Virus record (IMG/VR): IMGVR_UViG_3300032007_000013 | Strand: one strand, 5' to 3' | From: a virus | Taxonomy: Duplodnaviria > Heunggongvirae > Uroviricota > Caudoviricetes | DNA: 64,000 nt | Shown here: piece by piece, positions 3,604 to 3,728 of the stretch | Layout of the letters: each line of letters opens with the position of its first letter | Numbering within the stretch: position 1 is the first letter of the stretch | Position numbers and translations under genes: made by a program | Notes under the pieces: model-generated | Database searches by the model: none | Told to the model about the DNA's origin: nothing | The model's input: only the letters and a program-made list of their open reading frames with translations

Positions 3604-3728
3604 TGCCTTGTCGTCTAATTGGTCAGGACACGGGTCTCTGCTGAATATCCGGTGATTTAAGTTGGTTCAACACCAGCATTCAGCACCAAAAACCTGGGGA
3701 CTGAGTTCGAATCTCAGCGGGGCTGCCA
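3604..3728 (+). tRNA. tRNA carrying a ~49-nt hairpin insertion in the anticodon loop; mature anticodon ambiguous (CAA-like after removing the hairpin)
   Basis: Acceptor TGCCTTG/CGGGGCT (1:72 mismatch), D stem GTCT/GGAC with an AATTGGTCA loop, anticodon stem CGGGT/ACCTG. The 56 nt between the anticodon-stem strands contain an 8-bp plus 6-bp hairpin (TGCTGAAT...ATTCAGCA). T arm CTGAG-TTCGAAT-CTCAG, G73, CCA. Confidence 0.55.

What the first reader, a model, noticed from the sequence alone, without database searches (positions are those of the whole stretch)
3604..3728. tRNA with a 47-49-nt hairpin inserted into the anticodon loop, too short for a group I intron
All tRNA elements are present: acceptor TGCCTTG/CGGGGCT, D arm GTCT-AATTGGTCA-GGAC, anticodon stem CGGGT/ACCTG, 4-nt variable loop, T arm CTGAG-TTCGAAT-CTCAG, G73 and CCA. 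But 56 nt lie between the two anticodon-stem strands. Those 56 nt form a strong hairpin (TGCTGAAT-A-TCCGGTG ... CACCAG-C-ATTCAGCA). Removing it leaves a 7-nt loop cuCAAaa (anticodon CAA?), but a class-I tRNA with a Leu anticodon is anomalous. Alternative splice points would give CCA (Trp). This could be a small non-group-I intron, a mini-ribozyme, or a regulatory insertion, and I know of no standard bacterial mechanism for removing it.
Basis: seen in the sequence. Interest (0 to 1): 0.7.

Follow-up and report, generated by a model that had tools for sequence, protein, structure and literature searches.

The report
Phage suppressor tRNA split by mini-tRNA
A phage that reads the stop codon TAG as glutamine carries a suppressor tRNA gene whose anticodon is split by a 49-base miniature tRNA look-alike, which points to an undescribed way of cutting and rejoining tRNAs in bacterial viruses.

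Summary
The tRNA at 3604-3728 is real (Rfam tRNA 35 bits, threshold 29), and 56 nt do separate its anticodon-stem strands.

The insert is not a plain hairpin. Bases 3640-3688 form a tRNA-like minihelix:
- a 7-bp acceptor stem;
- a 14-nt linker;
- a T arm with loop UUCAACA;
- discriminator A;
- CCA.

Removing exactly G3640..A3688 leaves the loop CUCU|AAA. The anticodon is therefore CUA (amber suppressor), not CAA or CCA. The outer body is Gln-type, and the window is a TAG-to-Gln recoded jumbo-phage fragment.

Related phages and metagenomes carry about a dozen such nested tRNAs, all bounded by an acceptor 5' end and N-CC(A/U). Three have uninterrupted orthologues that fix the boundaries. The 49-nt element shows compensatory changes at 6 of its 12 base pairs. 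A 75-nt relative also occurs as a free-standing gene.

Most likely mechanism (inferred, not shown): RNase P cuts at the 5' end of the insert, an endonuclease cuts after its CCA, and an RNA ligase seals the 3'-OH/5'-P nick. A phage Rnl5-type ligase lies at 28331-29584.

Closest precedent: the unexplained tRNA introns of Lak megaphages (Devoto 2019).

The parts
3530..3558 (+). Sigma-70-type promoter TTGACT-17-TATAAT with a TG extended -10. It would drive the interrupted tRNA gene.
   Evidence: An 11/12 consensus match, the best in 400-6200. The identical 29-nt sequence sits at the same offset in L021, L106, L109 and L112 although the flanks differ. The overall promoter count in this AT-rich region is not above chance.
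3604..3639 (+). 5' exon of the outer tRNA: acceptor 5' strand 3604-3610, U8 C9, D arm 3613-3629, A26, anticodon-stem 5' strand 3631-3635, then C32 U33 C34 U35 (3636-3639).
   Evidence: Rfam alignment. The D arm TCGTCTAATTGGTCAGGAC is identical to tRNA-Glu/Gln genes in 19 IMG/VR contigs. The only INPHARED match is a tRNA-Gln.
3640..3688 (+). 49-nt tRNA-like minihelix, the 'intron'. Acceptor stem 3640-3646 pairs with 3678-3684 (G1-C72). Linker 3647-3660 (AUCCGGUGAUUUAA). T stem 3661-3665 pairs with 3673-3677. T loop UUCAACA 3666-3672. Discriminator A3685. CCA 3686-3688.
   Evidence: The MFE of the isolated 49 nt is this structure. Covariance model R1 finds homologues in L060, L024/L051, L111, L104, L106, L109 and L112. 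All 12 pairs are 100% kept, and 6 show changes on both sides.
3689..3728 (+). 3' exon of the outer tRNA: A36 A37 A38 (3689-3691), anticodon-stem 3' strand 3692-3696, variable loop GGGA, T arm 3701-3717, acceptor 3' strand 3718-3724, G73, CCA 3726-3728.
   Evidence: Rfam alignment. After in-silico removal of 3640-3688, ARAGORN calls a 76-nt tRNA with anticodon CTA and the junction after the second anticodon base.
28331..29584 (+). Phage-encoded ATP-dependent RNA ligase of the Rnl5 / DRB0094 / Naegleria NgrRnl type. It is a candidate for sealing the 3'-OH/5'-P nick left in the anticodon loop. This role is inferred.
   Evidence: Pfam RNA_ligase PF09414 (5e-13) plus the PHA02142 OB domain PF21189 (4e-21). 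Naegleria gruberi RNA ligase 5cot matches at E 1.2e-25. The ORF has no in-frame TAG.
2638..2707 (+). Second, uninterrupted CUA suppressor tRNA immediately upstream. This is context: the phage does not depend on the interrupted gene alone.
   Evidence: ARAGORN. Rfam scores it 34.2 bits, with a D-stem mismatch and a T-stem bulge. The orthologue in L021 lies at 7273-7342.

Best explanation
The locus is a Gln-type amber-suppressor tRNA gene (mature anticodon CUA) of a TAG-to-Gln recoded jumbo phage. Its anticodon is split between U35 and A36 by a 49-nt tRNA mimic, an acceptor/T-arm minihelix that ends in A-CCA.

Shown here:
- the anatomy of the gene and its insert;
- the exact DNA-level boundaries of the insert;
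- conservation and covariation of both the outer tRNA and the insert;
- recurrence of the same design in other tRNAs of related phages.

Inferred here:
1. The precursor is transcribed from the promoter at 3530-3558.
2. RNase P recognises the inner minihelix (U-1, G+1, 12 stacked base pairs, RCCA) and cuts between U3639 and G3640. This leaves a 3'-OH on the 5' exon.
3. A tRNA 3'-end endonuclease cuts after the inner CCA, between A3688 and A3689. This leaves a 5'-phosphate on the 3' exon.
4. The two exons stay together through the outer acceptor, D, T and anticodon stems.
5. An ATP-dependent RNA ligase seals the nick, plausibly the phage Rnl5-type enzyme at 28331-29584. The result is a 76-nt tRNA with loop CUCUAAA.

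Because the anticodon itself is interrupted, suppressor activity would depend on processing. This could delay or gate the switch to TAG-reading.
For: The recoded code:
- Reading through TAG raises the longest ORF from 642 to 1647 aa, and many ORFs carry 5-16 in-frame TAGs.
- TAG positions align most often with Gln in homologues: 47 Q, against a 3% Q background.

The outer tRNA:
- Rfam tRNA scores 35 bits against a threshold of 29.
- Virtual excision of 3640-3688 gives an ARAGORN tRNA with anticodon CTA.
- The joined loop and stem, GGTCTCT|AAAACC, equals that of many uninterrupted CUA tRNAs in related phages, for example L030 3468, L060 2029 and L025 6421.
- It has a 1-72 mismatch plus G73 and a Glu/Gln-type D arm.

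Boundaries fixed by orthologue pairs:
- Window tRNA-Gln(UUG) at 615-688 is intact. Its L021 orthologue carries an 83-nt G...UCCA insert, and excision restores the same loop CUUUGAC.
- L024 14130 is intact, while L028 carries an insert at 14079-14153.
- L069 2023-2097 is intact, while L021 carries an insert at 7430-7504.

The inner element:
- The 49-nt family is 100% paired, with 6 of 12 pairs compensatory. Slid controls give 30-46% pairing.
- The 75-nt family has a cloverleaf-like consensus with 6 covarying pairs. It also occurs free-standing at the end of tRNA arrays.
- In L117 and L123 the outer tRNA-Trp has no encoded CCA, but the insert keeps ACCA.

Selection:
- Five close relatives differ at 5 sites in 125 nt. 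None breaks a pair and two convert G.U to a Watson-Crick pair. The 5' leader diverges much more.

Ligase context:
- An RNA ligase is encoded in the window.
- Thg1-like and RlaP proteins, two P-loop kinases and four metallophosphoesterases are also encoded.
- All of these ORFs are free of in-frame TAG.
- Kienbeck et al. 2024 (PMC10879173) report the same ligase family as 140-fold enriched in recoded gut phages with tRNA-linked ribozymes.
Against: - There are no expression or RNA-end data. Cleavage and ligation are entirely inferred.
- From my own knowledge, not tested here: in many bacteria an encoded CCA inhibits RNase Z, and CCA-containing precursors are trimmed by exonucleases. An endonuclease that cuts exactly after an internal CCA is documented only for some organisms, such as Thermotoga RNase Z and E. 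coli RNase BN.
- No RNase Z or RNase P protein was found among the window ORFs that I scanned.
- Also from my own knowledge: NgrRnl-type ligases are characterised on nicked duplexes, not on anticodon-loop nicks, which are the speciality of T4 Rnl1.
- The phage also carries an uninterrupted CUA suppressor at 2638-2707. Strict gating of recoding by this intron is therefore not required.
- The same kind of insert occurs in non-suppressor tRNAs (Gln UUG, Leu UAA, UAU, Lys UUU, Trp CCA). The design is therefore not specific to code switching and may simply be a selfish or mobile element.
- U3639 can pair with the inner discriminator A3685, which could shift RNase P cleavage by one base.
Confidence: 0.55

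Rival explanations
1. The functional product is the inner tRNA-like RNA. The outer tRNA is only a carrier or processing scaffold and is not rejoined. The small RNA would act on its own, for example as the tRNA-like partner of the phage RNA-repair or Ro-like (DUF2828-vWA) machinery, or as a decoy for host tRNA-targeting nucleases.
For: - The 75-nt relative of the insert exists as a free-standing gene at the end of tRNA arrays (L118 3395-3469, L119 8792-8866, L124 1375-1449). Its 12-nt 'anticodon' loop GGAAAGCAAGGG is conserved.
- The inner linker CCRGUG and the T loop are conserved in sequence.
- The window and all the related loci encode a DUF2828/DUF7788 vWA protein close to the tRNA array.
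- Jumbo phages are reported to pair ROT/TROVE proteins with a tRNA-like RNA (PMC7824862).
Against: - The outer exons are as conserved as the insert. They change only by pair-preserving substitutions.
- Every nested case restores a canonical 7-nt anticodon loop and a valid tRNA on exact excision. A mere carrier would have no reason to keep this.
- Co-occurrence with DUF2828 is an ascertainment artefact, because the loci were fetched with that protein.
- No sequence-level link of DUF2828 to Ro60 was found in the PDB.
- The two functions are not mutually exclusive.
Confidence: 0.17
2. It is a suppressor tRNA gene inactivated by insertion of a mobile tRNA-derived element. This would make it a recent pseudogene with no splicing.
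For: - An intact CUA suppressor lies 900 bp upstream.
- Inserts of the same families sit at different loop positions in different tRNAs, which is mobile-element-like behaviour.
- Homing-endonuclease-like ORFs are scattered through the tRNA region.
Against: - The interrupted gene, with its own conserved promoter, is kept in five related genomes. All outer stems are intact and change only by pair-preserving substitutions, while the leader diverges.
- At the same locus L021 carries a different outer tRNA with a different insert at the identical 35/36 position.
- About a dozen independent nested tRNAs all retain foldable exons.
Confidence: 0.1
3. The insert is a small self-cleaving or self-splicing ribozyme (hammerhead, twister, hairpin, HDV-like/theta or a mini group I), or an archaeal-type bulge-helix-bulge intron.
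For: - Recoded gut phages do use HDV-like theta ribozymes next to tRNAs (PMC10879173).
- The 14-nt linker of the insert is conserved in sequence without an assigned role.
Against: - No Rfam family other than tRNA matches 3604-3728 even at E <= 1.
- Inserts of 49, 71, 75-77, 83, 112 and 121 nt share only the tRNA-like ends.
- The splice sites lie in a 4 x 7 internal loop, not in two 3-nt bulges separated by 4 bp (sequence).
- 49 nt is a quarter of the smallest group I introns.
Confidence: 0.04
4. One reading: a class-I tRNA with a CAA (Leu) or CCA (Trp) anticodon after removal of a 47-49-nt hairpin.
For: ARAGORN with introns allowed reports CAA with a 49-nt intron starting one position earlier in the loop.
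Against: - That placement is arbitrary within the loop.
- Homologous uninterrupted tRNAs read GGTCTCTAAAACC.
- The insert as a DNA segment is unambiguously G3640..A3688, because its flanking bases differ from its terminal bases.
- The body is Gln-type, not Leu or Trp.
- A true nested Trp (CUCC|AAA) exists in L117 and L123, and it differs from this gene at position 35.
Confidence: 0.03

Closest known systems
'Enigmatic' tRNA introns of Lak megaphages (Devoto et al. 2019, Nat Microbiol, PMC6784885)
   Same: - Both are TAG-recoded (code 15) huge gut phages with large tRNA arrays.
- In both, some tRNAs carry insertions in the anticodon loop that have no Rfam match.
- The authors noted that one intron 'itself may encode a tRNA'.
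- My reading of their Table S6 sequences is that the Tyr, Phe and Gly introns also contain an acceptor plus T-arm module near their 3' end.
   Different: - Lak introns are 79-114 nt, are placed by tRNAscan at 37/38, and carry an extra 5' hairpin segment. They lack an encoded CCA.
- Here the whole insert is the tRNA mimic (G1 to CCA76). It can be as small as 49 nt, it lies inside the anticodon (35/36), and the host tRNA is the suppressor itself.
- No mechanism was proposed in that paper.
- I saw no sequence similarity to the Lak introns by eye, but I did not test this formally.
Minihelix (acceptor/T-arm) model substrates of bacterial RNase P and other tRNA end-processing enzymes
   Same: 12 coaxially stacked base pairs, a 7-nt T loop, G+1, U-1 and 3' A-CCA. 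From established knowledge, this is the minimal substrate of bacterial RNase P, of the CCA-adding enzyme and of RNase Z.
   Different: Those are laboratory constructs or free pre-tRNAs. Here the minihelix is embedded in another tRNA's anticodon loop, and its 3' 'trailer' is the other tRNA's 3' half. Cleavage was not tested.
Phage T4 tRNA anticodon-loop repair (PrrC cleavage, Pnkp plus Rnl1 sealing) and jumbo-phage RNA-repair gene sets (Iyer et al. 2021, PMC7824862)
   Same: A phage-encoded RNA ligase is proposed to reseal a break in a tRNA anticodon loop. The window carries the ligase, RlaP, Thg1, kinase and phosphoesterase repertoire described for jumbo phages.
   Different: In T4 the break is host-inflicted damage with 2',3'-cyclic-phosphate / 5'-OH ends. 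Here the break would be programmed by the gene's own architecture and would have 3'-OH / 5'-P ends. The ligase is Rnl5-type, not Rnl1.
Archaeal and eukaryal protein-spliced tRNA introns (bulge-helix-bulge, splicing endonuclease plus RtcB or Trl1)
   Same: A short intron in the anticodon loop is removed by proteins rather than by self-splicing. The exons are held together by the tRNA body and then ligated.
   Different: There is no BHB motif and no splicing endonuclease is known in bacteria. The positions are 32-36 rather than 37/38, and the intron is a tRNA mimic.
Bacterial group I introns in tRNA anticodon loops (cyanobacterial tRNA-Leu UAA, tRNA-fMet; Patescibacteria, PMC13011429)
   Same: An intron in the anticodon loop of a bacterial-type tRNA gene.
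   Different: Those are self-splicing and at least ~200 nt with a P1-P9 core. This insert is 49 nt and has no match to the group I model.
Bacterial Y RNAs (YrlA) with a tRNA-like module (Chen et al. 2014, PMC4201824)
   Same: A small non-decoding RNA that mimics the acceptor/T/D part of tRNA and is encoded near a Ro-like or RNA-repair gene.
   Different: From my own knowledge, in YrlA the 5' and 3' ends form the Ro-binding stem at the 'anticodon' side, and the acceptor end is closed. Here the topology is that of a normal tRNA, with a free acceptor end and CCA. No Ro-binding helix was identified.

Membership tests
tRNA (Rfam RF00005) | A cloverleaf with acceptor, D, anticodon and T arms that scores above the curated threshold. 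| tested here: met
   35.0 bits against a gathering score of 29, model positions 1-71, with a 53-nt insertion in the anticodon loop.
tRNA (Rfam RF00005) | A 7-nt anticodon loop with U33 and a purine at position 37 in the mature molecule. | tested here: met
   Met only after in-silico excision of 3640-3688, which gives loop C-U-C-U-A-A-A. ARAGORN then calls a 76-nt tRNA with anticodon CTA.
Gln-type amber suppressor tRNA of code-15 phages | The genome reads TAG as Gln. | tested here: met
   ORF lengths and in-frame TAG counts. TAG aligns preferentially with Q (47) and with TAG (27) in homologues.
Gln-type amber suppressor tRNA of code-15 phages | A CUA anticodon on a tRNA-Gln-like body with a weak or mismatched 1-72 pair, G73 and a Glx-type D arm. 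| tested here: met
   U1.U72, G73. The D arm is identical to tRNA-Glu/Gln genes, and the only INPHARED match is a tRNA-Gln. The same features are present in L021, L028, L040 and L111 and in the uninterrupted CUA tRNAs. Aminoacylation was not tested.
tRNA-like (tRNA-in-tRNA) phage tRNA introns, as noted in Lak megaphages | An insertion in the anticodon loop of a phage tRNA that itself has tRNA-like acceptor and T arms. | tested here: met
   Structure with covariation. About a dozen distinct nested tRNAs in related phages. Lak precedent.
tRNA-like (tRNA-in-tRNA) phage tRNA introns, as noted in Lak megaphages | Sequence homology to the published Lak introns. | not tested
   Compared only by eye with the Table S6 sequences. 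The lengths and the 5' parts differ.
RNase P minihelix substrate | A 7-bp acceptor stem stacked on a 5-bp T stem, a 7-nt T loop, G+1, and 3' RCCA. | tested here: met
   3640-3688 as parsed from the sequence, from the MFE and from covariation. Discriminator A followed by CCA.
RNase P minihelix substrate | It is actually cleaved at -1/+1 by RNase P. | not testable with these tools
   This needs an in-vitro cleavage assay or 5'-end mapping.
Group I intron | A P1-P9 catalytic core of at least ~200 nt and a match to the Intron_gpI model. | tested here: not met
   The insert is 49 nt. No Rfam match other than tRNA at E <= 1 in 1-7000.
Small self-cleaving ribozymes (hammerhead, twister, hairpin, HDV-like/theta) | A match to the family covariance models. 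| tested here: not met
   No such match at E <= 1. I do not know whether theta ribozymes have their own Rfam model.
Archaeal/eukaryal BHB intron | Two 3-nt bulges separated by a 4-bp helix that carry the splice sites. | tested here: not met
   By inspection of the sequence, the junctions lie in an asymmetric internal loop: CUCU on the 5' side and ACCAAAA on the 3' side.
Y RNA / YrlA | A Ro-binding stem formed by the paired 5' and 3' ends, with a tRNA-like module distal to it. | tested here: inconclusive
   The topology differs, because the ends form an acceptor stem with a free CCA. No Rfam Y-RNA match. The relation of DUF2828 to Ro60 was not established.

The most novel reading that the evidence does not exclude
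Bacteriophages possess a protein/RNP-dependent tRNA splicing pathway not described for the bacterial world. In it the intron is a tRNA mimic.
- Host RNase P and a CCA-end endonuclease excise the intron as if it were a tRNA.
- A phage RNA ligase, translated from a TAG-free gene, rejoins the anticodon loop.
- For suppressor tRNAs split inside the CUA anticodon, this makes the switch to the alternative genetic code depend on an early phage enzyme. It would act as a timer for late-gene translation.
- The excised mini-tRNA, which also exists as a free-standing gene in relatives, may have a second function of its own.
Probability: 0.3. Interest if true: 0.92.

Novelty: new variant of a known kind. 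Interest (0 to 1): 0.8.

Why it matters
All characterised bacterial tRNA introns are self-splicing ribozymes. A tRNA intron removed by the ordinary tRNA end-processing enzymes and resealed by an RNA ligase would be a new splicing route.

It would also explain two things. One is the 'enigmatic' tRNA introns reported in megaphages in 2019. The other is why recoded gut phages so often encode DRB0094/Rnl5-type RNA ligases.

Here the interrupted molecule is the very suppressor tRNA that reassigns TAG. The finding therefore offers a concrete, testable handle on an open question: how recoded phages time the switch between genetic codes.

There is a practical point too. Standard tRNA finders miss these genes. 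ARAGORN's default mode missed this one, and it also missed suppressors with the GGCRGYA T loop. tRNA and suppressor inventories of recoded phages are therefore likely to be undercounted.

Tried and rejected
- Exact-word scans of IMG/VR with the 5' half, the 3' half and the intron gave nothing or a chance hit. One scan was wasted on a pattern with one N too many.
- Exact-protein look-ups of two neighbouring ORFs found no contigs.
- ARAGORN with introns allowed produced many false calls: class-II variable arms and fusions of adjacent tRNAs. I replaced it with a virtual-splice test. Inserts over 125 nt from that test (L046, L065, L008 and others) were rejected as fusions of two neighbouring complete tRNAs.
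- Ribozyme and group I models gave no match.
- The representative bacterial and archaeal genome collection gave only four chance matches without tRNA context.
- INPHARED phage records gave no match to the inner elements.
- A sequence search of the PDB with the DUF2828 protein did not link it to Ro60. I did not pursue structure prediction.
- Literature searches for nested or tRNA-like introns in phages returned only the Lak paper.
- The HNH ORF at 2800-3528 was considered as part of the element. I rejected this because L021, L106, L109 and L112 lack it but keep the promoter and the interrupted tRNA.
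Full report
OBSERVATION

It contains a complete tRNA body.
- Acceptor TGCCTTG/CGGGGCT, where pair 1-72 is a U.U mismatch.
- D arm, T arm with loop TTCGAAT, a 4-nt variable loop, G73 and CCA.
- Anticodon-stem strands CGGGT (3631-3635) and ACCTG (3692-3696), separated by 56 nt.

Rfam's tRNA model covers 3604-3725 at 35.0 bits, above the gathering score of 29, and treats 53 nt as an insertion in the anticodon loop. 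ARAGORN in default mode misses the gene and finds it only when introns are allowed. Folding energy alone is not remarkable (z = -0.66), so the case rests on comparative evidence.

CONTEXT

The window is 30% G+C and phage-like.
- Reading through TAG raises the longest ORF from 642 to 1647 aa. Many ORFs carry 5-16 in-frame TAGs.
- In tblastn alignments with related loci, the window's TAG positions align most often with Gln (47) or with TAG itself (27). The background Gln frequency is 3%.
- This is therefore a TAG-to-Gln (code 15) phage.
- A relative with 98% amino-acid identity in a neighbouring protein is a 239.5-kb IMG/VR contig (L021), so this is a jumbo phage.

The target lies in a tRNA cluster: Gln-UUG, Gln-CUG, an intact CUA suppressor at 2638-2707, the target, an odd tRNA, and Lys-UUU. 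A near-consensus promoter TTGACT-17-TATAAT lies at 3530-3558. It is conserved base for base in relatives whose flanks differ.

WHAT THE INSERT IS

Bases 3640-3688 parse as a miniature tRNA.
- Acceptor stem: G3640-U3646 pairs with A3678-C3684 (G1-C72).
- Linker: 14 nt, AUCCGGUGAUUUAA, in place of the D and anticodon arms.
- T stem: 3661-3665 pairs with 3673-3677.
- T loop: a canonical 7-nt loop UUCAACA.
- Discriminator A3685, then CCA at 3686-3688.

This is the MFE structure of the isolated 49 nt (z = -2.2).

A covariance model built from this copy and one relative finds the same 49-50-nt architecture in three other host tRNAs:
- a UAU tRNA (L060);
- a class-II tRNA-Leu(UAA) (L024/L051);
- a different CUA suppressor (L111).

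It also finds four near-identical copies of the window gene in metagenomes.

On the resulting alignment all 12 pairs are kept in 100% of cells, and 6 pairs show changes on both sides. With the partners slid by 1-3 columns, pairing falls to 30-46% with almost no compensatory change. The sample is small (7 distinct sequences) and the alignment is model-fitted, so this is supportive rather than conclusive.

One pair is never formed, another is broken in 5 of 7 sequences, and the remaining pairs are invariant or only partly kept.

WHERE THE BOUNDARIES ARE, AND THE ANTICODON

Removing exactly G3640..A3688 joins ...GGGUCUCU to AAAACCUG.... The result is a 7-nt loop C32-U33-C34-U35-A36-A37-A38, anticodon CUA, in a 76-nt tRNA that ARAGORN then recognises.

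Three independent lines fix these boundaries.

(a) They are the natural ends of the tRNA mimic, from +1 to CCA76.

(b) The joined sequence GGTCTCTAAAACC is what uninterrupted CUA suppressors of related phages have, for example L030 3468, L025 6421 and L060 2029.

(c) Interrupted and uninterrupted orthologue pairs exist.
- The window's own intact tRNA-Gln(UUG), with loop CUUUGAC, corresponds in L021 to a copy with an 83-nt G...U-CCA insert between CUU and UGAC.
- L024 14130 is intact, while L028 has an insert at 14079-14153.
- L069 2023-2097 is intact, while L021 has an insert at 7430-7504 in the same outer tRNA.

The base before the insert (T) differs from its last base (A), and the base after it (A) differs from its first base (G). 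The inserted DNA segment is therefore unambiguous.

The outer body is Gln-type.
- Its D arm is identical to tRNA-Glu/Gln genes.
- Its only GenBank phage match is a tRNA-Gln.
- It shares the 1-72 mismatch plus G73 with the other CUA tRNAs.

The CAA/Leu and CCA/Trp readings are therefore rejected. A genuine nested tRNA-Trp (CUCC|AAA) exists in L117 and L123 and differs from this gene at position 35.

GENERALITY

I ran a virtual-splice scan of 1.76 Mb: the window plus all fetched loci. It looked for a 7-bp acceptor-like stem ending in NCCA, flanked by a 5-bp stem with exactly seven bases left over, and then applied ARAGORN to the spliced sequence. Of 213,527 raw candidates, 31 were accepted. After removing duplicate loci and fusions of neighbouring tRNAs, about a dozen distinct nested tRNAs remain.
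- Their inserts are 49-50, 71, 75-77, 83 and 112 nt.
- A 121-nt family ends in N-CCU and sits in tRNA-Gln(UUG).
- Insert positions vary from after nt 32 to after nt 36.

What the inserts share is only the tRNA-like terminal helix, the T arm and the N-CC(A/U) tail.

The 75-nt family has a cloverleaf-like consensus with six covarying pairs and a conserved 12-nt loop.
- It is nested at position 35/36 in CUA suppressors and in a tRNA-Trp. That Trp tRNA has no encoded CCA of its own, yet the insert keeps ACCA.
- It also occurs as a free-standing gene at the end of tRNA arrays in L118, L119 and L124, with no Rfam match.

The model of this family also picks up, at 27-30 bits, uninterrupted CUA suppressors that share the unusual T loop GGCRGYA. 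This suggests the inserts descend from phage tRNAs.

None of these elements was found in the representative bacterial/archaeal genome set or in GenBank phage records.

SELECTION

The five close copies of the window gene differ at five sites in 125 nt.
- Two sites turn a G.U pair into a Watson-Crick pair: outer pair 5-68 and the inner T stem.
- Three sites are in loops or in the linker.
- None breaks a pair or touches the junctions.
- The 5' leader diverges strongly.

This argues against a decaying pseudogene. It indicates that both the exons and the insert are constrained.

MECHANISM (INFERRED)

From established knowledge, an acceptor/T-arm minihelix with G+1, a pyrimidine at -1 and 3' RCCA is the classic minimal substrate of bacterial RNase P. 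tRNA 3' endonucleases recognise it as well.
- RNase P would leave a 3'-OH on the 5' exon.
- An RNase Z-type cut after the CCA would leave a 5'-phosphate on the 3' exon.
- The exons would stay together through the outer tRNA's four stems.
- A 3'-OH/5'-P nick is what ATP-dependent RNA ligases seal without end-healing.

The window encodes such a ligase at 28331-29584, with Pfam RNA_ligase plus the PHA02142 OB domain. The Naegleria NgrRnl structure matches at E 1e-25.

The window also encodes a Thg1-like enzyme, an RlaP nucleotidyltransferase, two P-loop kinases, four metallophosphoesterases and a PIN-PhoH protein. This is the jumbo-phage RNA-repair repertoire described by Iyer et al.. The ligase, Thg1-like, RlaP, kinase and phosphoesterase ORFs contain no in-frame TAG, whereas structural and lysis-type ORFs carry up to 16. 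The same ligase family is reported to be 140-fold enriched in recoded gut phages that carry tRNA-linked theta ribozymes.

A plausible consequence follows. A suppressor split inside its anticodon becomes active only after processing and ligation, which could delay TAG read-through.

Weak points:
- There are no RNA data.
- The nuclease for the 3' cut is unknown. In many bacteria an encoded CCA blocks RNase Z.
- Rnl5 ligases are characterised on nicked duplexes.
- The phage has an intact CUA suppressor too, though with a D-stem mismatch and a T-stem bulge.
- The same inserts sit in non-suppressor tRNAs, so they may primarily be selfish or mobile elements, or vehicles for producing the small tRNA-like RNA.

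COMPARISON WITH WHAT IS KNOWN

The nearest precedent is Devoto et al. 2019. They reported 'enigmatic', highly conserved introns in tRNAs of code-15 Lak megaphages, stated that phage tRNA introns had not been reported before, and noted that one intron may itself encode a tRNA. Their Table S6 introns are 79-114 nt. By my reading they contain an acceptor/T-arm module preceded by an extra hairpin, and they lack CCA.

I found no paper that proposes a removal mechanism.

The present case is a new variant of that kind in four respects:
- the whole insert is the tRNA mimic;
- it is reduced to a 49-nt minihelix with encoded CCA;
- it splits the anticodon itself;
- it sits in the suppressor that implements the recoding.

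It is not a group I intron, not a BHB intron, and not any Rfam ribozyme (see the membership table).

VERDICT

It is wrong on the anticodon and on the nature of the hairpin.

The structural reading, a tRNA mimic nested in a CUA suppressor, is well supported. The splicing pathway is a reasoned inference that simple experiments can test.

Noticed in passing
L046 4097-4216, L045 2191-2309, L072 2533-2649, L099 2184-2303, L065 267-389, L067 1747-1870, L077 482-611, L084 597-726, L001 6874-7003, L042 9182-9308, L066 2429-2562, L085 1237-1370, L076 4520-4637, L074 8882-9014: A second kind of short insertion (33-57 nt) occurs in tRNAs of related phages (Lys, His, Pro, Phe, Tyr, Leu, Val). It has no CCA and appears to sit between the anticodon-stem 5' strand and the loop (31/32). 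It carries a hairpin followed by a conserved (A/G)UGUC(A/U)GCAAU, or GAAUC...GGUUC...ACAGCA. The 3' end of the insert often repeats the stem's 5' strand. Rfam sees only the host tRNA. The mechanism is unknown.
   Followed up: partly
L118 3395-3469 (-), L119 8792-8866 (-), L124 1375-1449 (-): A free-standing 75-nt tRNA-like RNA gene sits at the end of tRNA arrays. It has an acceptor stem, a D-like arm and a 5-bp stem with the conserved 12-nt loop GGAAAGCAAGGG, and it ends in G-CCA. It is homologous to the inserts nested in CUA and Trp tRNAs. It has no Rfam match, and ARAGORN did not call the nested copies of this family as tRNAs. In L118 it lies upstream of a Band-7 gene and a DUF5662-like gene that are syntenic with window 31457-33738.
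   Followed up: partly
L073 4120-4240, L075 1647-1767, L079 1433-1553, L082 2008-2128: A 121-nt tRNA-like insert splits the UUG anticodon of a tRNA-Gln after nt 35. It has terminal helix CGAGAAA/TTTCTCG and T arm ATGAG-TGCAAGT-CTCAT, and it ends in N-CCT instead of N-CCA.
   Followed up: partly
L069 2023-2097, L095 2413-2487, L097 1393-1467; outer tRNA of L021 7395-7545: These CUA suppressor tRNAs have a non-canonical T loop GGCRGYA in place of TTCRANN. ARAGORN's default scan did not list them, and they surfaced only through the covariance model of the 75-nt insert. Suppressor counts in such phages are probably underestimated.
   Followed up: partly
window 3574-3596: A perfect AT-rich palindrome, AAAGAATATAT-A-ATATATTCTTT, followed by a T run lies in the 5' leader between the promoter and the tRNA. 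Relatives have a hairpin of different sequence at the same place (AAGGAAATTAATTAATTTCCTT, AAGGAATATATACATATTCCTT). The structure is therefore conserved while the sequence is not. It could be an attenuator or a processing signal.
   Followed up: no
window 2800-3528 (+): An HNH-endonuclease-like ORF with 9 in-frame TAGs is inserted between the intact suppressor tRNA and the promoter of the interrupted one. It is absent at this position in L021, L106, L109 and L112, so it is a separate mobile insertion.
   Followed up: yes
window 4819-4890 (+): An odd tRNA-like gene (Rfam 39.9 bits, 30% G+C) has three mismatched acceptor pairs and an 8-nt anticodon loop, for which ARAGORN reports the four-base anticodon 'tgtt'. 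It could be a quadruplet decoder, a tRNA mimic or a decaying gene.
   Followed up: no
window 5345-5361 and 5386-5487 (+): An isolated T-arm-like hairpin GCGAGTTCAAATCTCGC (a weak tmRNA/tRNA-clan match) and three terminator-like hairpins lie just upstream of tRNA-Lys (5496-5573).
   Followed up: no
window 6147-6875, 27338-28324, 29677-30669, 43594-44349 (+): Four paralogous ORFs are rich in in-frame TAG (3-11 each). They have repeated Cys-rich N-terminal modules (DLTNxxFGxxxVL...CxCxCG) and a C-terminal FDF...(E/Y)DGxQH motif, which is homing-endonuclease-like. Two of them flank the RNA ligase gene.
   Followed up: no
window 22960-24062, 28331-29584, 31457-32347, 35283-37377, 42629-43501, 50998-53693, 55189-56415, 6912-8411: The window holds a dense RNA-repair-type gene set: two AAA_33 kinases, four metallophosphoesterases, an Rnl5 ligase, a Band-7 protein, Thg1-like, RlaP, PIN-PhoH and a DUF2828/DUF7788 vWA protein. 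The kinase, phosphoesterase, ligase, Thg1-like, RlaP and DUF2828 ORFs have no in-frame TAG. The Band-7 ORF has 1 and the PIN-PhoH ORF has 7.
   Followed up: partly
L099 4260-4884 and 5567-5868; L066 1050-1641; L065 487-1082: Related phages carry a ROOL RNA (RF03087, 306-341 bits) inside the same tRNA arrays, and L099 also carries a tmRNA gene. The window has neither at the gathering threshold.
   Followed up: no
L042 6276-6365, L087 3726-3818, L088 4564-4654, L068 6905-6995, L098 782-872 and others: Many CUA suppressors in this phage group have a long variable arm (about 20 nt, with the motif CCYCUGAAGG) on a Gln-like body. This is a class-II-like shape that is unusual for tRNA-Gln.
   Followed up: no
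window 22338-22391 (+): A weak match (16.6 bits, E 1.6) to the 49-nt minihelix model, ending in ACACCA, lies antisense to the 1642-aa tail-fibre-like ORF. It is probably chance.
   Followed up: no
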